Virus record (IMG/VR): IMGVR_UViG_3300041586_000098
Location: 9,392-73,391 of that record
Length of the DNA stretch: 64,000 nucleotides
Direction: 5' to 3' (one strand)
From: a virus
The notes below the pieces were generated by a model. It had not been told where the DNA came from and did not search any database. It saw nothing but the letters and a program-made list of their open reading frames with translations. Numbering within the stretch: position 1 is the stretch's first letter; each line of letters starts with the position of its first letter. The position numbers were made by a program, and so were the translations under genes. Below are positions 50,728 to 63,310 of this stretch, one piece after another.

Positions 50728-51864
50728 ATGGAAAATTTAAATTCAGTATGTTACGTTGGTTTAGTTACGGAAATTAAGGAAATTAAAGGGGCTGATTTTC
50801 TTGAATTAGCATTAATCGGAGGTTGGAATTGTGTAACTAAGAAAAACGAATTTCAAACAGGTGATAAGATAGTGGTTGCAACAACAGACGCGGTCATTCC
50901 TGCAACACTTTCAGATTTAATGAGTGTTACTACATATCTTAGAAAAGGTAACCGCGTGCGCACTGTAAAGTTACGAGGAGTATACTCTGAGTGTCTTCTT
51001 ATTCCATTTAAGTATTTAGCACCGCAATCCTTAGAAAAAAATTGTCCAGTTGGAACTGATATGATGCCAATATTAGGTGTTACTAAATATGAGCCTCCTG
51101 TTAGACAAATTCAACTTGCAGGTGGTAGAAAAACTAAATATCAAGACAATCAAAACTTTCATGTTTATTACAAATTTCCAAATTTAAAAAATGTGGATGG
51201 AATGTTCAATGAGACAGACGAAGTTCAAATTACAAGAAAAATTCACGGAACAAACGCGAGATTTGGTATTGTTAGAAAAAACAAATTATCTATATGGGAT
51301 AGGATTAAAAAATATTTAAAACTTCCGGGACATAGATTTGTTGAATATGAGTATGTATATGGTTCGCATAATGTTGAAAAAGGAAGTGACTCACAGGGTT
51401 TCTATTCTACTGATGTTTGGTCTAATGCTGCAAATAAATATAAAATTAAAGAAAGTCTTTGGGAATATGCAAAAAACATGTATGTGTCTATTGGTGAAGG
51501 GATCGTAATCTATGGTGAAATTTATGGAGCAGGCATTCAAAAAAACTATGAATATGGTTTAACAGAAACTAGATTTGTTGCATTCGATATTAAACGTAAT
51601 GGAGAATATTTATCACCATTAACCACTGAATTTTTAATAAATAAAGAATTTGGTATTCCACATGTTGAAGTATTATATACTGGTCTTTGGTCTCAATCAG
51701 TACAAGATAAATTTACATTTAAAAACTTTATTAAAGAGACAAAGGTTCCGCATGAAGGTATTGTAATTAAGTATCATACAGGTGAAAGAAATAAAATAGC
51801 AAAGGTTATTAATCCAGACTACTTATGCTATAGTGAAGCAAATGATGTAGAAGATTCACATTAA
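50728..51864 (+). CDS. ATP-dependent RNA ligase (DRB0094/Rnl family)
   Basis: N-terminal OB-like domain; TRKIHGTN, YGEIYG, FDI, HEGIVIK, AKVI. Confidence 0.88.
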   Translation: MENLNSVCYVGLVTEIKEIKGADFLELALIGGWNCVTKKNEFQTGDKIVVATTDAVIPATLSDLMSVTTYLRKGNRVRTVKLRGVYSECLLIPFKYLAPQSLEKNCPVGTDMMPILGVTKYEPPVRQIQLAGGRKTKYQDNQNFHVYYKFPNLKNVDGMFNETDEVQITRKIHGTNARFGIVRKNKLSIWDRIKKYLKLPGHRFVEYEYVYGSHNVEKGSDSQGFYSTDVWSNAANKYKIKESLWEYAKNMYVSIGEGIVIYGEIYGAGIQKNYEYGLTETRFVAFDIKRNGEYLSPLTTEFLINKEFGIPHVEVLYTGLWSQSVQDKFTFKNFIKETKVPHEGIVIKYHTGERNKIAKVINPDYLCYSEANDVEDSH

Positions 51865-53925: not shown

Positions 53926-54303
53926 ATGAAAAGGATAAAATTATTTGAAGAGTTTTTAAACGAATCAGAGGAAACATATAATGATTATCCAGCTGCCGCA
54001 TCTCAAAATGCAAAAATGGCAATTGATTGGCGCGATGAATATGGTAGAGATGAAATAAAGGCTGGTACTGCAGTTGGATGGCAACGAGCAAATCAATTAG
54101 CAAATAAAGAAAAGATATCTGCTGATGTTGTATCTCGAATGGCATCTTTTAATAGACATAGAAAGAACTCAACAATTGCACCTGAATTTAAAAGTACGCC
54201 CTGGCTCGATAAAGGATATGTTAGTTGGCTGTTATGGGGAGGAGATGAAGGAGTTGATTGGGCTATTGAAAAGGGAAAGGAAATTAAAAAAGAAGAAGAA
54301 TGA
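53926..54303 (+). CDS. Conserved phage protein with capsid-targeting-like N-terminus
   Basis: Likely start MKRIKLFEEFLNE at 53926; GT.VG..RA.QL, RM.SF.RH, LWGG..G..WA. Confidence 0.7.
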   Translation: MKRIKLFEEFLNESEETYNDYPAAASQNAKMAIDWRDEYGRDEIKAGTAVGWQRANQLANKEKISADVVSRMASFNRHRKNSTIAPEFKSTPWLDKGYVSWLLWGGDEGVDWAIEKGKEIKKEEE

Positions 54304-54842
54304 AAAAAATAAAATTATTTGAGGAATTTATGAACGAGGCTAAAAAACAAACGTATGGTGCTAATTGTGCAATGTTATATTTTGACTTTCCAGAAATGGC
54401 GCAAATTCATAAAGAAATAATATCATCTGATCTATTTGAATCAGAAGAAGGAGGAGGGCATGGTTTAGAAACTGAATCACATTGTACACTACTATATGGA
54501 CTTAATGCCGATGTATCATTAAATGCAGTTAAGGTAAAATTACAAGGGTTGGGCTTTGATAAATGTCTCGCACATAACATTTCATTATTTGAAAACAAAG
54601 AGTTTGATGTGCTTAAATTTGATATTAAGGGAGATAATTTGCACGCCGCCAATAAATCTTTATGCGAACTTCCGTATAAAACAGACTATCCTGATTATCA
54701 TCCCCATATGACTGTTGCATATTTAAAATCAGGTATGGGGAAAAAATACGTGGAAATGTTTAATACACATGAACATGTCTTAATTCCATCACATATTGTT
54801 TATTCAATGACAGATGGTAGTAAAAATACCATTGATATTTAA
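54300..54842 (+). CDS. 2H phosphoesterase (gp57B/Acb1-like) with capsid-targeting-like N-terminus
   Basis: HCTLLYG and YHPHMTVAY HxT motifs; starts MKKIKLFEEFMNE. Confidence 0.8.
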   Translation: MKKIKLFEEFMNEAKKQTYGANCAMLYFDFPEMAQIHKEIISSDLFESEEGGGHGLETESHCTLLYGLNADVSLNAVKVKLQGLGFDKCLAHNISLFENKEFDVLKFDIKGDNLHAANKSLCELPYKTDYPDYHPHMTVAYLKSGMGKKYVEMFNTHEHVLIPSHIVYSMTDGSKNTIDI

Positions 54843-55641: not shown

Positions 55642-55782
55642 GTTATAACAAATAATTTATTAATGAATACCGAAGAAAAGAAATTTATAAAGAGACAAGT
55701 CAATATATTCATATTAATTGCTATACTTTCATTATTAGCACTTATTGGATTTACATTTATTATTTAATTAAAAATCTAAATT

Positions 55783-56058
55783 ATGCCATTTTACACAGGA
55801 TCAACCGCAGATGGATCAGATGCACATGAGGTACAGGGAATGTATATTAATCCAAATAATCATGACGAATGGTCGAACGTTCCTTATGAAAACAGCAAAG
55901 ATAATAGAATATGGAATAGAATTAGAGAATACATGTCAGGCAAATATTGTTTAAACGATGTTTATCTTCAAATAAAAAACAAAACATGTCCTCTTTCTTA
56001 TATCGAAAGGAAATTTGTGTTAACACAATACAATCAAAATAATTTAACAAAAAATTAA
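55783..56058 (+). CDS. Hypothetical protein
   Basis: 91-aa ORF. Confidence 0.6.
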   Translation: MPFYTGSTADGSDAHEVQGMYINPNNHDEWSNVPYENSKDNRIWNRIREYMSGKYCLNDVYLQIKNKTCPLSYIERKFVLTQYNQNNLTKN

Positions 56059-56141
56059 CACTTAAAGTTTTCAAGATTAAAAGATTTTGATTATATTTAC
56101 TTATAATTAAAAACAAAACAAATTAAAAAGTTCAAATATAT

Positions 56142-56269
56142 AATCAAGTCAAAGTAAGAAAGCTCGTACTGACCGAAACAAACTAACAAGTGAGGAGAAA
56201 CACACAAAAAGCTGAAAGTAGGAGGTACATGTATAATAGAAGGCTGGTGAAGCTCCAGAAGACTTGATT
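56142..56269 (+). ncRNA. Unrecognised multi-stem ncRNA, copy B
   Basis: AATCAAGTC/GACTTGATT closing stem; motifs shared with 44419-44535. Confidence 0.65.
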
Positions 56270-56328
56270 TTAATAAAGGTTAAACATTGAAGCCTTTGTG
56301 AATTAACTTGAGAAAACCTGTAGGTTGT

Positions 56329-56579
56329 TATTGAGCACTAATTTACATAAAGATACTAGCAGTAATGTTAGATGTGTTGTCACCTTGAGAAAGTGATAGG
56401 TTTTGAAAATAGTATAGTCTAACATACCTTGCTACAACACAAATGAGTTCTCGGCAAGTAGTTAATCGTAGGGTCATTACAACTTTTTTGAAGATTTCCT
56501 TAACTACGCGACCCAAACATATTCGAGAAGTAAGCACTATTATTAGTTGCCGAGTAATAGAATGATGTGGGTGCTAATA
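56329..56579 (+). ncRNA. Candidate ~250-nt pseudoknotted ncRNA
   Basis: Several 7-8 bp helices, including crossing pairs TGTGTTGT/ACAACACA and GGGTC/GACCC. Confidence 0.55.
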
Positions 56580-56782
56580 CTAATAAAAAAGTATTTAATT
56601 GAAACAAAAATAAAAAGTTATATATAATTAGTATAAAATAATTTAAATTCGTGAAGAAATACACCTTTTGAAAATAAATTAAAAATAAAGCTCTTTTATA
56701 GTGAATTAGCTGAAACTAAAAGATATATAATAATATAATATGTATAAGAAAATAAAACTTATATATAATTAAACAAATTAAA

Positions 56783-56929
56783 ATGAAAACATTGCAAATC
56801 ATATCGCAGAATATTAGTCTACTTGAGATGAATCTAGCCTTACCAGTAGGAGATCAAACATGTGTCTTTTATACTAGAGAATGGAAACACAATGGTTCTT
56901 TTGAAGATCATAAAGTTAATATGAGTTAA
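56783..56929 (+). CDS. Putative attenuator leader peptide (48 aa, all 20 amino acids)
   Basis: MKTLQIISQNISLLEMNLALPVGDQTCVFYTREWKHNGSFEDHKVNMS; A-rich leader; overlaps the antiterminator arm. Confidence 0.7.
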   Translation: MKTLQIISQNISLLEMNLALPVGDQTCVFYTREWKHNGSFEDHKVNMS

Positions 56930-56987
56930 AAATCTATTAACATATAAATATTCAAAAGGACCTCTCAAAACTGATTGGTCCTTTTTT
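56894..56987 (+). promoter_or_regulatory. Antiterminator/terminator switch
   Basis: GGTTCTTTTGAA (56894-56905) pairs with TTCAAAAGGACC (56951-56962), competing with terminator AAAAGGACC/GGTCCTTTTTT. Confidence 0.7.
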
Positions 56988-56997
56988 AATTTAACAC

Positions 56998-57067
56998 GTT
57001 TCGTTTAATCTTGGAGATTGGATAGCTTGCAACCCTATCAGAAGTGGTTCGATTCCACTACGAAACT
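56998..57067 (+). tRNA. tRNA-Cys(GCA), atypical D and anticodon arms
   Basis: GTTTCGT/ACGAAAC acceptor, U73, loop TTGCAAC. Confidence 0.7.
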
Positions 57068-57313
57068 CTAATAACTTTAACAAAACATTAACACTAAAAG
57101 TTTTTATAAGTCAAATAAAATGATTATATTTACTTATAATTAAAAACAATAGAATATGTGTGAAAAGGAAAGATTATTAAGAGAATTGTTTAAGACCGTG
57201 GAAAGGAAAACAAACGGTTGGAAATGCAAAATGGAAACTTTAACAAAAAATTAACACTTAAAGTTTTCAAGATTAAAAGATTTTGATTATATTTACTTAT
57301 AACTAAAAACAAA

Positions 57314-57341
57314 CGTTAATTGACATATTGATAATACTAAA
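57314..57341 (+). promoter_or_regulatory. Conserved leader with boxA-like element (also 58339-58366 and 60401-60428)
   Basis: Identical CGTTAATTGACATATTGATAATACTAAA between promoter and first tRNA, three times. Confidence 0.55.
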
Positions 57342-57461: not shown

Positions 57462-58145
57462 ATGGAAAAGTTAATTAAGGTTAAACAAGCCTCAAGGCGA
57501 AAATATCATTACATCTATAAAACTACATGTATCATTACTGAAAGGTTTTATATTGGAATGCACTCAACTGATAACCTAGAAGATGGTTATGTTGGTTCAG
57601 GTAAAAGATTATGGCATTCAATAAACAAACATGGCAAAGAAAATCATGTCACTGCGATAATTGAATATTTAAAAGATAGAGATTCTTTAAAAGCTAGAGA
57701 AAAAGAAATGGTTAATGAAGATCTATTAAAGGATCCTCAATGCATGAATTTAGCGTTAGGCGGAGAAGGTGGTGCGGGTTGCATGACTAAAGAACAATTA
57801 TCTAAAGGAGGTAAAAAAATGAATGAACTAAATTGGACTGATCTTGAATTTATAAAACGGAATGCAGAAAGAAATAAAATAAGGTTAAAAGAATTATGGA
57901 AAGATCCAGAATATAGAAACAAAATGTTAGTTTTAATAAATTGGACTGGTAGAAAACATAAAGAAGATTCTATAAATAAAATGAAAGTGTCTAAGATCGA
58001 TCATGGAAAAGGATCTTTAAACTCACAATATAATACATGTTGGATTTATAAAATTACAGATGAAAAATCTATTAAAATAAAAAATAATGAAATTCAATCA
58101 TATTTAGATAATGGTTGGATTGAAGGTAGGAAGATGAAATGGTAA
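57462..58145 (+). CDS. Seg-like GIY-YIG homing endonuclease
   Basis: YIYKTT....FYIGMHST..LEDGY.GSG; G.KH..E NUMOD3-like motif. Confidence 0.88.
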   Translation: MEKLIKVKQASRRKYHYIYKTTCIITERFYIGMHSTDNLEDGYVGSGKRLWHSINKHGKENHVTAIIEYLKDRDSLKAREKEMVNEDLLKDPQCMNLALGGEGGAGCMTKEQLSKGGKKMNELNWTDLEFIKRNAERNKIRLKELWKDPEYRNKMLVLINWTGRKHKEDSINKMKVSKIDHGKGSLNSQYNTCWIYKITDEKSIKIKNNEIQSYLDNGWIEGRKMKW

Positions 58146-58262: not shown

Positions 58263-58366
58263 CTTTAACAAAACTTTAACACTTAAAGTTTTCTAGATTA
58301 AAATATTTTGATTATATTTACTTATAATTAAAAACAAACGTTAATTGACATATTGATAATACTAAA

Positions 58367-58856: not shown

Positions 58857-58927
58857 GGCCCGGTCGTCTAAAAGCAGGACATTGTACTTTCAATTCAAAA
58901 ACCGGAGAGCGTTACTCCGTCGGGCTA
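58857..58927 (+). tRNA. tRNA-Glu(TTC), non-canonical T loop AGCGTTA
   Basis: Cloverleaf, loop CTTTCAA. Confidence 0.8.
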
Positions 58928-59345: not shown

Positions 59346-59407
59346 TGCGGGGTAGTGTAATGGTAGCATGATGGGCTCATAACCCAAAGGAGTGGTTCGA
59401 ATCCGCC
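59346..59407 (+). pseudogene. Initiator tRNA-fMet(CAT) truncated at its 3' acceptor strand
   Basis: TGCGGGG start; GGG/CCC anticodon stem; expected CCCCGCA replaced by the endonuclease leader. Confidence 0.65.
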
Positions 59408-59447: not shown

Positions 59448-60101
59448 ATGCAAAAGACAAAAGGAATTAAAAGAGCTTCGGTTCGTAAATATCATTACAT
59501 TTATAAAACAACATGTATCATTACAAATATGTTTTATATTGGAATGCATTCAACTGACAACCTAGAAGATGGTTATGCTGGTTCAGGTACACGTCTATGG
59601 CATTCTATAAATAAACATGGCAAAGAAAACCATGTCACAAAGATTGTTGAGTTCTTAATAGATAGAAATTCTTTAAAGACTAGAGAAAAGGAGTTGGTTA
59701 ATGAAGATATGCTGAATGACAAAATGTGCATGAATATTCAATTAGGTGGAGGCGGAGGCTTTATATCTGAAGAAATTCAAAGGAATCGATCAATTGCTGG
59801 TGGAAATGCATTTAAAGAAAAATTCACTAATGATGAAGAATTTAAACAACGTTGGAGAAATGCAGTTTTCGATAGCGGAGCATGGTCCGGAGAAACATGG
59901 TTAGGTAGAAAACATAATGAAGAGACAAAGAAAAAGATTGGAGCATCTAATTCAATTAAACAATCCGGATCTTTAAACTCACAGTTCGGTAAATGCTGGA
60001 TTTATAACATTGAATTAAAACAAAATATTAGTATTAAAATGTCATTATTAGAACCATATTTAATAGAAGGTTGGATTAAAGGCAGAAAGATGAAATTTTA
60101 A
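59448..60101 (+). CDS. Seg-like GIY-YIG homing endonuclease (paralogue of 57462)
   Basis: Near-identical N-terminal catalytic domain. Confidence 0.88.
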   Translation: MQKTKGIKRASVRKYHYIYKTTCIITNMFYIGMHSTDNLEDGYAGSGTRLWHSINKHGKENHVTKIVEFLIDRNSLKTREKELVNEDMLNDKMCMNIQLGGGGGFISEEIQRNRSIAGGNAFKEKFTNDEEFKQRWRNAVFDSGAWSGETWLGRKHNEETKKKIGASNSIKQSGSLNSQFGKCWIYNIELKQNISIKMSLLEPYLIEGWIKGRKMKF

Positions 60102-60318: not shown

Positions 60319-60429
60319 CTAAAACTTTAACAAAAAATTAACACTTAAAGTTTTTTATATTAAAAGATTTTGATTATATTTACTTATAATTAAAAACAAA
60401 CGTTAATTGACATATTGATAATACTAAAT

Positions 60430-60602: not shown

Positions 60603-60673
60603 GCCCTTGATGCTTTAAAGTGAAGCACCTAGCTTTTAACTAGGGGAAGTAGGAGCATTACCTACCGGGGGTA
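60603..60673 (+). tRNA. tRNA-Lys(TTT), T loop AGCATTA
   Basis: CCTAG-CTTTTAA-CTAGG. Confidence 0.85.
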
Positions 60674-60996: not shown

Positions 60997-61077
60997 GGGA
61001 ACAGAAAGTCGTTTGGATACGGCAGCGGGATTGTAAACCCCGTCCGAAAGGGAGTGGTTCGAATCCACATGGTCCCA
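60997..61077 (+). tRNA. tRNA-Tyr(GTA)
   Basis: Loop TTGTAAA, variable hairpin CC-GAAA-GG, A73. Confidence 0.75.
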
Positions 61078-61153
61078 CTAAACCTTAACATGTTAAGGTT
61101 GATTAAATCATAATGTCTACATATTCTAATTGAAACTATGATATTATGCAATT

Positions 61154-61369: not shown

Positions 61370-62092
61370 ATGAAAGAATGTGAAAATTGTAAATTAAAAC
61401 ATGAAGGCATATATGGCTCAGGTAGATTTTGTTCAAATACATGTGCCAAGGGATTCAGTACAAAGTTTAAAAGACTAGAAATTAATGAAAAAGTTAAAAT
61501 TAAACTAACAACAACAGAGACTATAATAAAGGAATGCGAAAATTTAAAATGCAAAAAAAAATTCAAATATAACTCTACATATAAAAACAGAAAATACTGT
61601 TCAATTAAATGTGGTGCATTTGTTAATAGTACTAACGAAATAGTTAAAGATAAATTATCAATAGCTAGAATTAATGCAATAAAGCGTGGAATAACAAATG
61701 GTTCAGGCATAAAATCAACATATTTGTTTAAAGGAAATTTCATAAATTGCGACTCTAATATAGAAAGAGCCTGTATAAATTATTTTGAAAATTTAGGTGC
61801 ATCATTAATCGAAAGATGTGACATTACAATACAGTATGTACATAATGGTACTACGCGTAGATTTTTACCTGATTTTAAGGTCTTATTAAATAACAAAACA
61901 TATATTGTTGAAGCCAAGGGATATGTAACTTCAACAATATTAAATGAAAAATGGAGACATTATAATGAGACTTCAATATTAAAAAAAAATATATTGCAGC
62001 AATATTGTAAAGAAAATAATTATGATTCCTTTTGGTTTACAAAAGATCTTCATATGAAATATTATAGAAATTTATCTAGGTTCGATTCCTAG
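61370..62092 (+). CDS. PD-(D/E)XK (TnsA-like) putative homing endonuclease with Cys-rich N-terminus
   Basis: CENC..FCS..C twice; RRFLPDF......IVEAKG. Confidence 0.8.
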   Translation: MKECENCKLKHEGIYGSGRFCSNTCAKGFSTKFKRLEINEKVKIKLTTTETIIKECENLKCKKKFKYNSTYKNRKYCSIKCGAFVNSTNEIVKDKLSIARINAIKRGITNGSGIKSTYLFKGNFINCDSNIERACINYFENLGASLIERCDITIQYVHNGTTRRFLPDFKVLLNNKTYIVEAKGYVTSTILNEKWRHYNETSILKKNILQQYCKENNYDSFWFTKDLHMKYYRNLSRFDS

Positions 62093-62795: not shown

Positions 62796-62867
62796 GGTGT
62801 TTGAAGCTTTTTAGTGAAGCGCAAGACTGTGAATCTTGAGAAGACGGGGCGGTACCGTCCTAACACC
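62796..62867 (+). tRNA. tRNA-His(GTG), T loop GGCGGTA
   Basis: G-1/C73; CAAGA-CTGTGAA-TCTTG. Confidence 0.85.
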
Positions 62868-62966
62868 CGACATCTCCAAAATGGAGAATGACTTGGTAAT
62901 GAATTAATTTCAAACAAACTCAATACCTTAAGTTGAGCAGATAATCTACGTGATTATCTTTTAAAT

Positions 62967-63129: not shown

Positions 63130-63310
63130 AATATTAATTGTTGAAGCTTATAAACGTTTTGTAAGACTCGAGTTCGACTCTCGACATGTCCACTAAATTA
63201 AAAGTATTAAAAAGGGCATGAATGGTGTTGATTACGATATAGAATATAGGACTAGATTAATATCAACGCAAACGACAAATTTGCCTTAGCAGCGTAGTTG
63301 CTGTTAGGTA
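63130..63310 (+). ncRNA. ssrA: Circularly permuted (two-piece) tmRNA, tag ANDKFALAA
   Basis: T arm and CATGTCC-A (63185-63192) lie upstream of GGGCATG (63214-63220); G3.U70; tag ORF 63268-63297. Confidence 0.88.

What the first reader, a model, noticed from the sequence alone, without database searches (positions are those of the whole stretch)
56600..57067. Putative pan-tRNA-sensing attenuator at the head of the tRNA array
Seen: middle (56600, 56711) and late (56722) promoter motifs precede a 48-codon ORF (56783-56929). Its first 15 codons are all different, and all 20 amino acids and 30 distinct codons appear by codon 36, including all three Ile codons and four Leu codons (hand count). Codons 38-41 (GGTTCTTTTGAA) pair over 12 bp with the 5' arm of the following intrinsic terminator (56954-56987), and the first tRNA starts 11 nt after it. 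Known: amino-acid attenuators use leader peptides enriched for one amino acid. Inference: this leader does the opposite, so a stall on almost any depleted or cleaved tRNA frees the antiterminator and switches on phage tRNAs and tmRNA. Caveat: the array also has internal early-class promoters, so control would matter mainly in middle and late infection.
Basis: partly seen in the sequence, partly recalled or inferred. Interest (0 to 1): 0.93.

Follow-up and report, generated by a model that had tools for sequence, protein, structure and literature searches.

The report
Translation-sensing switch before phage tRNA genes
A tiny translated gene that uses all 20 amino acids and ends inside a stop/go RNA switch sits in front of this phage's tRNA genes, so the phage probably transcribes them more when ribosomes decode slowly.

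Summary
ORF 56783-56929 (48 codons) has 15 different first codons, then 30 codons and all 20 amino acids by codon 36. That is rare in this genome (0.05% and 0.17% of 16,947 windows). Codons 38-41 pair over 12 bp (one G.U) with the 5' arm of a hairpin plus T-run that ends 10 nt before tRNA-Cys.

Comparative data show a real element. Promoter, short ORF, antiterminator, stop-codon hairpin and terminator recur in uncultured myophages. One diverged copy (L025) changed both terminator and in-ORF partner yet keeps the pairing. The frame stays open while the peptide is weakly constrained. In 23 of 23 loci the module precedes the first or second tRNA. One copy heads an array starting with tRNA-Gln, so it is not Cys-specific.

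Best reading (0.65): a ribosome-mediated transcription attenuator in which slow decoding favours read-through. Selection for all 20 amino acids is weak in the window's subfamily A (10 of 23 complete). It is strong in sister subfamily B (109 of 115 complete).

Here only tRNA-Cys strictly depends on read-through; control of the whole array or the tmRNA is not shown. No expression data exist. This scan noted the same kind of element earlier on other DNA. My six searches found no published case.

The parts
56599..56628 (+). Sigma-70-like promoter (TTGAAA, 18 nt, TATAAT). It is present only in the near-identical relatives.
   Evidence: 11 of 12 matches. One search shows conservation in L001-L003. 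It is not in the distant relatives.
56710..56739 (+). Conserved promoter-like element (TGAAAC...GATATATA...TATAAT).
   Evidence: 10 of 12 matches. TGAAAC and TATAAT are kept in all 20 non-redundant copies aligned.
56760..56768 (+). Late-like TATATATAA box, 15 nt before the leader start codon.
   Evidence: The same motif class lies 14-44 nt before structural genes at 2918, 9770, 27250 and 32576. CTTATATATA is kept in 17 of 20 copies.
56783..56929 (+). Leader ORF of 48 codons plus stop. It contains all 20 amino acids and 34 different codons.
   Evidence: Homologues of 34-48 codons have only in-frame indels.
56809..56863 (+). Inner hairpin P1 (arms 56809-56815 and 56857-56863). It is conserved in relatives and weak in the window (5 of 7 pairs). 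It may be a pause hairpin.
   Evidence: RNAalifold, columns 27-33 and 75-81. One pair shows compensatory changes (CG 8, UA 3, AU 2).
56894..56905 (+). Antiterminator 5' strand (codons 38-41, GGTTCTTTTGAA).
   Evidence: Variants in relatives keep the pairing through G.U. L025 covaries fully.
56912..56941 (+). Small hairpin (GTTAATA / TATTAAC) that holds the stop codon in its loop.
   Evidence: columns 148-154 and 170-176; AU in 10 and GU in 5 at one pair. It is also kept in L025, in another reading frame.
56951..56962 (+). Antiterminator 3' strand, which overlaps the 5' arm of the terminator.
56954..56987 (+). Intrinsic terminator: 9-bp stem, 14-nt loop, T-run.
   Evidence: hairpin alone -14.5 kcal/mol.
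56998..57068 (+). tRNA-Cys(GCA). It is the only gene here with no promoter of its own after the terminator.
   Evidence: Stems covary among relatives.

Best explanation
This is a ribosome-mediated (leader-peptide) transcription attenuator at the head of the phage's tRNA gene array.

Proposed mechanism. Transcripts from the conserved promoter elements carry a 48-codon leader ORF. The last part of that ORF (codons 38-41) can pair with the 5' arm of the intrinsic terminator. That pairing encloses a small hairpin that holds the stop codon. If no ribosome covers this region when RNA polymerase makes the terminator, the antiterminator forms first and transcription runs on into tRNA-Cys and beyond. 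That happens when the leading ribosome is held up anywhere in about the first 33 codons. If translation keeps pace and the ribosome reaches the stop codon, it sits inside the antiterminator. The terminator then forms and the transcript ends at 56987.

What it senses. The leader holds nearly every amino acid once or a few times, rather than a run of one. The switch should therefore report general decoding speed, meaning shortage or cleavage of almost any tRNA, rather than one amino acid.

Shown: the anatomy, its conservation and covariation, conservation of the open frame, and its position at array heads.

Inferred: translation itself, the direction of the switch, and what is sensed.

My odds: about 0.65 that it is a translation-coupled attenuator. 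About 0.35-0.4 that amino-acid completeness is itself selected for pan-tRNA sensing.
For: (1) The antiterminator duplex is -14.5 to -18.0 kcal/mol, z -4.3 to -6.2, in 16 of 16 subfamily A copies tested. In 15 of these no shuffle out of 300 reached it; in L106 the lowest shuffle did (-15.0 against -14.9).

(2) Before the terminator's 3' arm is made, the minimum-energy fold holds the antiterminator plus the stop-codon hairpin in 7 of 7 copies folded.

(3) The two conformers are nearly equal in energy. Window -21.0 against -22.7, L036 -23.1 against -25.7, L025 -19.7 against -20.2.

(4) Covariation. L025 has a different terminator (AGCCCGAC / GTCGGGCT) and a matching in-ORF strand (TCGGGCTCT pairing with AGAGCCCGA). 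In L049, GAUUUGGG pairs with CCCAAAUC and tracks that copy's own terminator. Two variants that change the peptide keep the pairing through G.U: GSFE to GLFE, and E to G.

(5) The hairpin-arm motif AGTTAAT is conserved in two different reading frames, VNMS* and KLIIS*. In the 3' part of the ORF, dN/dS exceeds 1 in 13 of 19 pairs that gave a value (21 compared). This points to constraint at the RNA level.

(6) The frame is kept. All indels in the ORF are multiples of 3 in 20 copies, and the start codon is ATG or GTG. Synonymous turnover is seen: Gly uses GGA, GGC, GGG and GGT; Ile uses ATA, ATC and ATT. In the 5' part dN/dS is 0.2-1.0. The protein collection holds 26 subfamily A clusters and 198 subfamily B clusters of 39-63 aa, plus a few longer calls that start further upstream.

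(7) Genes of this phage lack Shine-Dalgarno motifs (6 of 71 have one), so the leader's A-rich start region is normal here.

(8) Position. Of the 80 RNA-ligase loci, 35 have three or more tRNAs. Of these, 17 carry subfamily A, 6 carry B, 7 carry neither, and 5 have the array head cut off. In the 23 with a module it precedes the first tRNA in 16 and the second in 7.

(9) Diversity. The probability of at least the observed number of amino-acid kinds is 0.015 for the window, 0.012 for the L036 type and 0.009 for L025. The background is about 25,000 windows from 793 long ORFs of the phage family. In subfamily B, 109 of 115 variants have all 20 kinds, against 96.2 +/- 2.1 (maximum 104) in 2000 column shuffles. 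His reappears in five other columns in 13 of the 15 variants that lost it at column 8.

(10) Precedent. In the M. smegmatis whiB7 uORF attenuator, a single Trp codon is enough to sense Trp shortage (PMC10274678, section 7).
Against: There are no transcript, 3'-end or ribosome data. No RNA run holding the stretch was listed.

In the window's own subfamily, completeness is not strict. Of 23 variants, 10 have 20 kinds, 7 have 19, 5 have 18 and 1 has 17. I fixed the 23 conserved columns, which already hold 15 kinds, and redrew the other positions. Members with 20 kinds then give P = 0.09-0.16, which is not significant. In the column-shuffle test, 70 of 3000 shuffles reach the observed count.

The L035 type has ordinary diversity (P = 0.18-0.41).

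In two subfamily B members (L010, L069) the candidate antiterminator is no better than shuffles (-7.9 against a mean of -7.9).

Parts of the peptide are conserved, for example MQxIQxHI and a single Cys in all 23 subfamily A sequences aligned except one variant with two and L138 with two. This could reflect a function of the peptide itself.

With the ribosome at the stop codon, the antiterminator 5' strand lies just behind the expected footprint. Blocking therefore rests on steric argument and on trailing ribosomes.

There is no anti-antiterminator, so an untranslated transcript should read through. The switch cannot tell 'no translation' from 'stalled translation'.

Downstream tRNA blocks have their own promoter cassettes.
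Confidence: 0.65

Rival explanations
1. It is an ordinary small protein gene with its own intrinsic terminator. The peptide has a function of its own, and the pairing between the ORF's 3' end and the terminator arm serves mRNA stability or is a by-product.
For: The peptide is partly conserved. In one search, 23 columns are at least 70% conserved, and Cys, Tyr, Trp and GSFE are kept. Many metagenome annotations call it as a gene. In the 5' part, dN/dS falls as low as 0.2 in some pairs.
Against: The spacer, the hairpin loop and the ORF's 3' end are more conserved at the DNA level than the neighbouring tRNA. The same arm motif is read in two frames. In the 3' part dN/dS is mostly above 1. The antiterminator covaries with a changed terminator. 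AlphaFold2 with 23 sequences gives no confident fold (mean pLDDT 55.6, pTM 0.22); this is weak evidence for so short a chain. No Pfam family matches. A terminator 10 nt before a promoter-less tRNA needs conditional read-through.
Confidence: 0.1
2. It is a cysteine-specific attenuator. The single conserved Cys codon senses Cys-tRNA, and the switch controls only the tRNA-Cys gene behind it.
For: The aligned Cys codon is TGT in all 16 distinct subfamily A ORFs that have residues at that aligned column (17 in the alignment; L025 is gapped there). tRNA-Cys follows the terminator by 10-11 nt in most subfamily A copies, while its downstream neighbour varies between Gly, Ser and Phe.
Against: The subfamily A-type leader in L138 heads an array that starts with tRNA-Gln, with no tRNA-Cys next to it. 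Subfamily B leaders precede tRNA-Ser. The Cys codon lies in the conserved inner hairpin, which would by itself keep the sequence. In relatives without the module, tRNA-Cys sits mid-array behind another element.
Confidence: 0.07
3. The terminator/antiterminator switch is real but is not set by ribosomes. A protein or an RNA (for example a tRNA, as in T-boxes) or polymerase speed decides, or it is a fixed leaky terminator that sets a constant level.
For: No direct evidence of translation exists. The two conformers are close in energy. boxA-like motifs stand before first tRNAs in relatives, which suggests factor-dependent antitermination in these arrays.
Against: The frame is preserved across 20 DNA copies and more than 200 protein clusters, with in-frame indels only. 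The antiterminator strand always lies in the last 4-11 codons, and the stop codon always lies inside the enclosed hairpin, in both subfamilies. Rfam finds no T-box or other riboswitch.
Confidence: 0.12
4. The leader encodes an arrest peptide. The nascent chain stalls the ribosome in response to a small molecule or factor (TnaC, SpeFL or ErmCL style).
For: The N-terminal motif is conserved, and it is shared by subfamilies A and B at the DNA level.
Against: The conserved peptide blocks coincide with RNA helices. His-Ile and Ile-Cys codons form P1 in subfamily A. The WSDSLC and YNNEP codons form a 12-bp hairpin in subfamily B. In the 5' part dN/dS reaches 1.0. Known arrest peptides depend on residues near the stall site, which vary here.
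Confidence: 0.05

Closest known systems
whiB7 (wblC) uORF transcription attenuator of mycobacteria (PMC10274678; I read the abstract and section 7)
   Same: A translated upstream ORF precedes an antiterminator/terminator pair, and stalling gives read-through. It responds to shortage of many amino acids, tRNAs and synthetases (hits related to 18 of 20 amino acids). The M. smegmatis uORF encodes 19 of 20 amino acids. Which amino acids are sensed follows from which codons are present, and one Trp codon is enough.
   Different: It controls a transcription factor gene in Actinobacteria, not tRNA genes in a phage. That uORF is enriched in Ala and varies freely in composition. There is no sequence relation. 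In the sister subfamily here, all 20 kinds are kept in 109 of 115 variants.
Leader-peptide attenuators of enterobacterial amino-acid operons (trpL, hisL, pheL, thrL, ilvL). This is textbook knowledge, recalled; PMC1183508 and PMC3082878 were seen only in search listings.
   Same: A short leader ORF, an alternative antiterminator and terminator, an inner hairpin that could pause the polymerase, and coupling of translation to transcription.
   Different: Those leaders carry runs of the regulatory codon and use a three-helix logic (1:2, 2:3, 3:4), so an untranslated leader terminates. Here there is no codon run, and no anti-antiterminator was found. The regulated genes are tRNAs.
Antibiotic-responsive ribosome-mediated attenuators of Firmicutes (bmrB-bmrCD, PMC4191407; vmlR, PMC9226507; I saw only the search listing and the start of each abstract)
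   Same: Two-state switches in which any slowing of the ribosome on a leader ORF favours the antiterminator.
   Different: They control resistance genes in bacteria. No claim has been made about the amino-acid completeness of those leaders.
Inducible long tRNA array (trn operon) of Anabaena PCC 7120 (PMC8421152, passages read; PMC10272220, start of abstract only)
   Same: A spare tRNA array is switched on when translation is impaired. RNA-repair genes lie nearby; here an RNA ligase lies at 50728-51864.
   Different: [quoted passage not shown] The words attenuat-, leader and terminator occur 0 times in that paper.
T-box riboswitches
   Same: A terminator/antiterminator choice that reports tRNA charging.
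   Different: T-boxes bind uncharged tRNA directly and need no ORF. No T-box or any other riboswitch family matched.

Membership tests
Leader-peptide (ribosome-mediated) transcription attenuator | A short ORF with a start codon and a usable initiation region, upstream of the regulated gene. | tested here: met
   48 codons starting with ATG. The A-rich upstream region matches the phage's other genes, of which 6 of 71 have a Shine-Dalgarno motif. The frame is kept in relatives.
Leader-peptide (ribosome-mediated) transcription attenuator | An intrinsic terminator between the leader ORF and the regulated gene. | tested here: met
   The hairpin at 56954-56985 plus the T-run ends 10 nt before tRNA-Cys.
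Leader-peptide (ribosome-mediated) transcription attenuator | An alternative antiterminator helix that uses the terminator's 5' arm, conserved or covarying. | tested here: met
   Covariation is seen in L025 and L049. It is weak in L010 and L069.
Leader-peptide (ribosome-mediated) transcription attenuator | The ribosome's position on the leader decides which helix forms. | not testable with these tools
   Geometry fits. The antiterminator strand lies in the last 4-11 codons and the stop codon lies inside the enclosed hairpin. No expression data exist.
Leader-peptide (ribosome-mediated) transcription attenuator | Regulatory codons enriched for the amino acid made by the operon. | tested here: not met
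   There is no codon run. The leader has 34 different codons in 48. It therefore works like an attenuator but is not a member of the classical amino-acid type.
Leader-peptide (ribosome-mediated) transcription attenuator | An anti-antiterminator (helix 1:2), so that an untranslated leader terminates. | tested here: not met
   The conserved inner hairpin P1 does not overlap the antiterminator strand.
whiB7-type broad-sensing uORF attenuator | The uORF holds most amino-acid kinds, so that many shortages stall it. | tested here: met
   20 of 20 kinds in the window; 17-20 in subfamily A; 19-20 in subfamily B.
whiB7-type broad-sensing uORF attenuator | Homology or shared gene context (upstream of whiB7, in Actinobacteria). 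| tested here: not met
   The context is a phage tRNA array. No family matched the peptide.
T-box riboswitch | A match to the T-box covariance model (specifier loop and T-box sequence). | tested here: not met
   There was no Rfam match at gathering score or at E up to 1.

The most novel reading that the evidence does not exclude
The leader is a selected 'pangram'. Evolution keeps at least one codon for every amino acid upstream of the antiterminator. Loss of any single charged tRNA, for example through host anticodon nucleases or phage-induced decay of host tRNAs, then stalls the ribosome. That stall triggers transcription of the phage's replacement tRNA set. This would be an inducible, self-diagnosing counter-defence and supply circuit for translation.
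Probability: 0.35. Interest if true: 0.9.

Novelty: new variant of a known kind. Interest (0 to 1): 0.8.

Why it matters
Why phages carry tRNA arrays, and when they use them, is an old open question. Current answers are codon supply and escape from tRNA-cleaving defences (PMC10264068, PMC11464382 and PMC11555353, seen in search listings only).

A translation-sensing switch at the head of the array would mean that the phage measures decoding itself and makes tRNAs on demand. That can be tested directly with reporters. It would extend leader-peptide attenuation from amino-acid and resistance genes to tRNA genes and to viruses.

It would also offer a natural sensor of 'any tRNA missing'. The relocating single His codon in the sister subfamily is a rare kind of sequence evidence: what is selected is the presence of a codon, not its position.

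Tried and rejected
Searches for relatives.
- The cultured-phage collection gave nothing. blastn of 56400-57100 found no match. tblastn of an 894-aa neighbour found one weak hit.
- The search for related loci with the peptide alignment failed because no stretch was conserved enough.
- The same tool with the 34-aa L025 peptide failed as 'query too short'.
Most rows were unrelated: generic terminators and chance ORFs. After filtering, one search added copies (L097, L100, L106, L116, L130, L138, L180). One search added only L260, the same contig as L025.

Expression. No RNA holder was listed. All 20 runs listed are DNA, mostly salt-lake metagenomes. I did not lay reads, because contigs cannot show RNA ends.

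Homology of subfamilies A and B. hhalign was not significant (probability 1.4%). The first nine or so codons are alike at the DNA level by eye, so I treat homology as likely but unproven.

Ideas rejected.
- Cys-specific sensing (L138 and subfamily B).
- A T4-type TATAAATA box in the spacer (56945-56952) as a private late promoter for tRNA-Cys. The box is not conserved in relatives.
- The Rfam GibS match at 56862-56990 (30 bits against a gathering score of 115) is chance.
- A pyrBI-type mechanism, in which the ribosome blocks the terminator directly. The stop codon lies 24 nt before the terminator stem.

Other points.
- 'First 15 codons all different' is not remarkable on its own (2.9% of windows).
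- The AlphaFold2 result is weak evidence either way for a 48-residue chain.
- Supplements of the papers were closed. The whiB7 uORF alignments (their Supplemental Table 1) might bear on how unusual amino-acid completeness is.
Full report
WHAT IS THERE

The window is 64 kb of a 73.4-kb contig with about 30% G+C. It comes from an uncultured myovirus: PHROG matches cover tail sheath, portal, major head protein and large terminase. The 20 public runs that hold the stretch are DNA runs, mostly labelled salt-lake metagenomes.

At 56783-56929 lies a 48-codon ORF, MKTLQIISQNISLLEMNLALPVGDQTCVFYTREWKHNGSFEDHKVNMS.
- The first 15 codons are all different.
- There are 30 different codons and all 20 amino acids by codon 36.
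- Three Ile codons and four Leu codons are used.

Codons 38-41 (56894-56905) pair with 56951-56962 over 12 bp, with one G.U. Nine of those positions form the 5' arm of a hairpin with a 9-bp stem and a 14-nt loop (56954-56985). The hairpin is followed by a T-run that reaches 56987.

tRNA-Cys(GCA) starts at 56998. Rfam scores it 30.4 bits against a gathering score of 29 in a local scan. It was not listed in the whole-window gathering scan.

A second small hairpin (56912-56918 with 56935-56941) holds the stop codon in its loop.

IS IT MORE THAN CHANCE?

- In 16,947 36-codon windows of this genome's 67 long + strand ORFs, 0.05% reach 30 different codons and 0.17% reach 20 amino acids. No window also has a first repeat at codon 16 or later.
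- Of 109 small ATG ORFs, only this one has 20 amino acids.
- The pairing energy is -14.7 kcal/mol, against -5.4 +/- 1.5 in 300 shuffles of the coding part.
The relatives do.

RELATIVES

The peptide and a neighbouring RNA ligase gene (50728-51864) led to IMG/VR contigs. Near-identical copies are too close to be informative.

Contigs whose RNA ligase is only 61-71% identical carry a homologous ORF of 42-48 codons (38-44% identical). It is followed by the same spacer, hairpin and tRNA-Cys. I aligned 20 non-redundant copies. They had been picked by an exact match to the hairpin arms, so conservation of the stem is by construction. The alignment shows four things:
- A conserved promoter-like block (TGAAAC...GATATATA...TATAAT) and a late-like TATATATA box.
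- Only in-frame indels within the ORF.
- An ORF 3' end, spacer and hairpin loop that are more conserved than the tRNA behind them.
- Two peptide-changing variants of the antiterminator strand (GSFE to GLFE, and E to G) that keep every pair through G.U.

THE DECISIVE COPY, L025

L025 was found by looking upstream of tRNA-Cys genes that lack the exact hairpin. Its ORF has 34 codons and 19 amino-acid kinds. Its terminator is different (AGCCCGAC / GTCGGGCT). Its ORF 3' end (TCGGGCTCT) is complementary to the new 5' arm (-18.0 kcal/mol, z -4.3).

Its stop-codon hairpin uses the same arm motif, read in another frame (KLIIS* instead of VNMS*). So the RNA is conserved, not the peptide.

FOLDING

- In 7 of 7 copies folded, the fold available before the terminator's 3' arm exists contains the antiterminator and the stop-codon hairpin.
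- The two conformers differ by only 0.5-2.6 kcal/mol in subfamily A. That is what a kinetic switch needs.
- RNAalifold also finds a conserved inner hairpin. It pairs His-Ile codons with Ile-Cys codons and has compensatory changes at one pair. It may be a pause hairpin; that is inference.

IS THE ORF TRANSLATED?

The evidence is indirect.
- The frame, the start codon (ATG, or GTG in L180) and the stop position are kept.
- The protein collection holds 26 clusters of this peptide.
- Synonymous turnover occurs at conserved Gly and Ile positions.
- dN/dS is 0.2-1.0 in the 5' part. In the 3' part it exceeds 1 in 13 of 19 pairs that gave a value (21 pairs compared).
- Together these show an open frame that matters, a peptide that matters little, and an RNA constraint at the end.
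- The missing Shine-Dalgarno motif is normal for this phage (6 of 71 genes have one).
- AlphaFold2 gives no confident fold (mean pLDDT 55.6).

WHAT DOES IT GO WITH?

It does not go with tRNA-Cys as such.
- In L138 a leader with the same antiterminator and terminator heads an array that starts with tRNA-Gln.
- A second leader type, subfamily B, stands before tRNA-Ser at the head of other arrays. It has 46-47 codons, for example MKAIQNIHQQLSTATRALNTWSDSLCGDVILGFSAYNNEPKQGKTGV.
- Subfamily B has its own terminators and a stop-codon hairpin. An antiterminator strand lies in its last codons. This is clear in L049 (8 bp, tracking that copy's terminator). It is plausible in L061. It is no better than shuffles in L010 and L069.
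- Subfamilies A and B share their first nine or so codons at the DNA level by eye, but hhalign is not significant.

Counts over the 80 RNA-ligase loci: 35 have three or more tRNAs. Of these, 17 carry A, 6 carry B, 7 carry neither (four of them near-identical), and 5 have the array head cut off. In the 23 with a module, it precedes the first tRNA in 16 and the second in 7, out of up to 28 tRNAs.

IS 'ALL 20 AMINO ACIDS' SELECTED?

Against about 25,000 windows from 793 long ORFs of the phage family:
- Window: P = 0.015 for amino-acid kinds and 0.006 for codons.
- L036 type: P = 0.012.
- L025: P = 0.009.
- L011 and L045: P = 0.30 for kinds.
- L035 type: P = 0.18-0.41.

Within subfamily A, 10 of 23 variants have 20 kinds. 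I fixed the 23 conserved columns, which already hold 15 kinds, and redrew the other positions. Members with 20 kinds are then not significant (P = 0.09-0.16). In a column-shuffle test, 70 of 3000 shuffles reach the observed count. So in the window's own subfamily the diversity is real but mostly inherited.

Subfamily B is different. There are 198 clusters, of which the best 120 were listed. I analysed 115 and dropped 5 longer calls that I could not trim. Of the 115, 109 have all 20 kinds and 6 have 19. Column shuffles give 96.2 +/- 2.1 with a maximum of 104; none of 2000 reaches the observed value. The single His sits at column 8 in 100 variants. Of the 15 that lost it there, 13 carry a His in one of five other columns. 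Shared ancestry inflates such tests, but at least five separate relocations are hard to explain otherwise.

MECHANISM

The direction of the switch is inferred.
- A ribosome held up in about codons 1-33 leaves 56894-56905 free. The antiterminator forms first and the polymerase reads through.
- A ribosome that reaches the stop codon occupies the inside of the antiterminator. The terminator forms, because its stem starts 24 nt after the stop codon, beyond the footprint. Footprint size is recalled knowledge.
- No anti-antiterminator was found, so an untranslated leader should also read through.
- W34 and H36 are probably too close to the strand to sense cleanly, which leaves 18 kinds in the sensing zone.

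REACH

In this window only tRNA-Cys lacks a promoter of its own after the terminator. Cassettes ending in a boxA-like motif stand before tRNA-Gly, tRNA-Pro and tRNA-Ser (57316, 58341 and 60403). The permuted tmRNA-like gene is at 63146-63297. Read-through may add to their transcription, but control of the whole array or of the tmRNA is not shown.

KNOWN RELATIVES OF THE IDEA

- The closest in print is the whiB7 uORF attenuator. It responds to shortages related to 18 of 20 amino acids. In M. smegmatis it encodes 19 of 20 kinds, and it loses the Trp response when its single Trp codon is removed (PMC10274678, abstract and section 7).
- Classical trp- and his-type leaders differ in having codon runs and three-helix logic (recalled).
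- The Anabaena trn array is induced by translational stress, but through promoter repeats and a repressor (PMC8421152 passages; PMC10272220, start of abstract).
- Six full-text searches found no account of a leader-peptide attenuator before tRNA genes, in phages or elsewhere.
- Earlier notes of this scan describe the same kind of element on other genomes, including look-alikes of subfamily B. None concerned the window's subfamily A. They gave me the whiB7 and Anabaena leads. They are not evidence.

LIMITS

Everything here is computational, and no RNA data were found. Shuffle controls ignore phylogeny. The sets of relatives were gathered by sequence motifs, so they are biased towards conserved copies.

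Noticed in passing
L010:7570-7636, L049:4600-4670, L061, L069, L070, L071, L078, L077 (relatives): In relatives where tRNA-Cys sits mid-array, it is preceded within 3-5 nt by a conserved element of about 65 nt. The element begins CACCTACTACGTAACGCACGATCGACGACACGTACTGTCTGG and has apparent closing stems. Rfam finds no family for it. It is a possible new structured leader RNA or processing signal.
   Followed up: partly
window 57316-57331, 58341-58356, 60403-60418; L010, L025, L034, L069, L138 just before first tRNAs: A boxA-like motif directly precedes tRNA genes at the end of repeated promoter cassettes. In relatives it reads GTTCTTTGACATATTGG; in the window, TTAATTGACATATTGA. rrn-type antitermination is a lead and was not tested.
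   Followed up: partly
window 55768-56595: This stretch of about 830 bp is absent from the near-identical relative L001. It holds a 91-aa ORF, a promoter cassette and G+C-richer non-coding DNA with no credible ORF. The leader module starts right after it.
   Followed up: no
window 63146-63297: Rfam matches a permuted tmRNA at 50.2 bits against a gathering score of 47. ARAGORN does not call it.
   Followed up: no
window 58857-58927, 59352-59407, 60603-60673; 60998-61078, 62797-62868: Three Rfam tRNA matches are not called by ARAGORN. Two ARAGORN tRNAs (Tyr, His) do not reach Rfam's gathering score in the whole-window scan. Several phage tRNAs here are atypical.
   Followed up: no
window 50728-51864, 54300-54842: An RNA ligase (Pfam RNA_ligase plus the PHA02142 OB domain) and a protein matching a PHROG family annotated as RNA ligase (phrog_755) lie 2-6 kb upstream of the array. 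They form a possible tRNA-repair set next to the tRNA genes.
   Followed up: no
window 57462-58145, 59448-60101, 61370-62092: ORFs sit between tRNA blocks. The ORF at 57462-58145 matches homing endonuclease families. The other two had no Pfam match above the curated cutoff and were not searched in PHROGs.
   Followed up: partly
L138:3200-3350: In L138 the leader module directly follows a gene end that looks like a sigma-factor region 4 or helix-turn-helix. This is my reading of the translation and was not searched.
   Followed up: no
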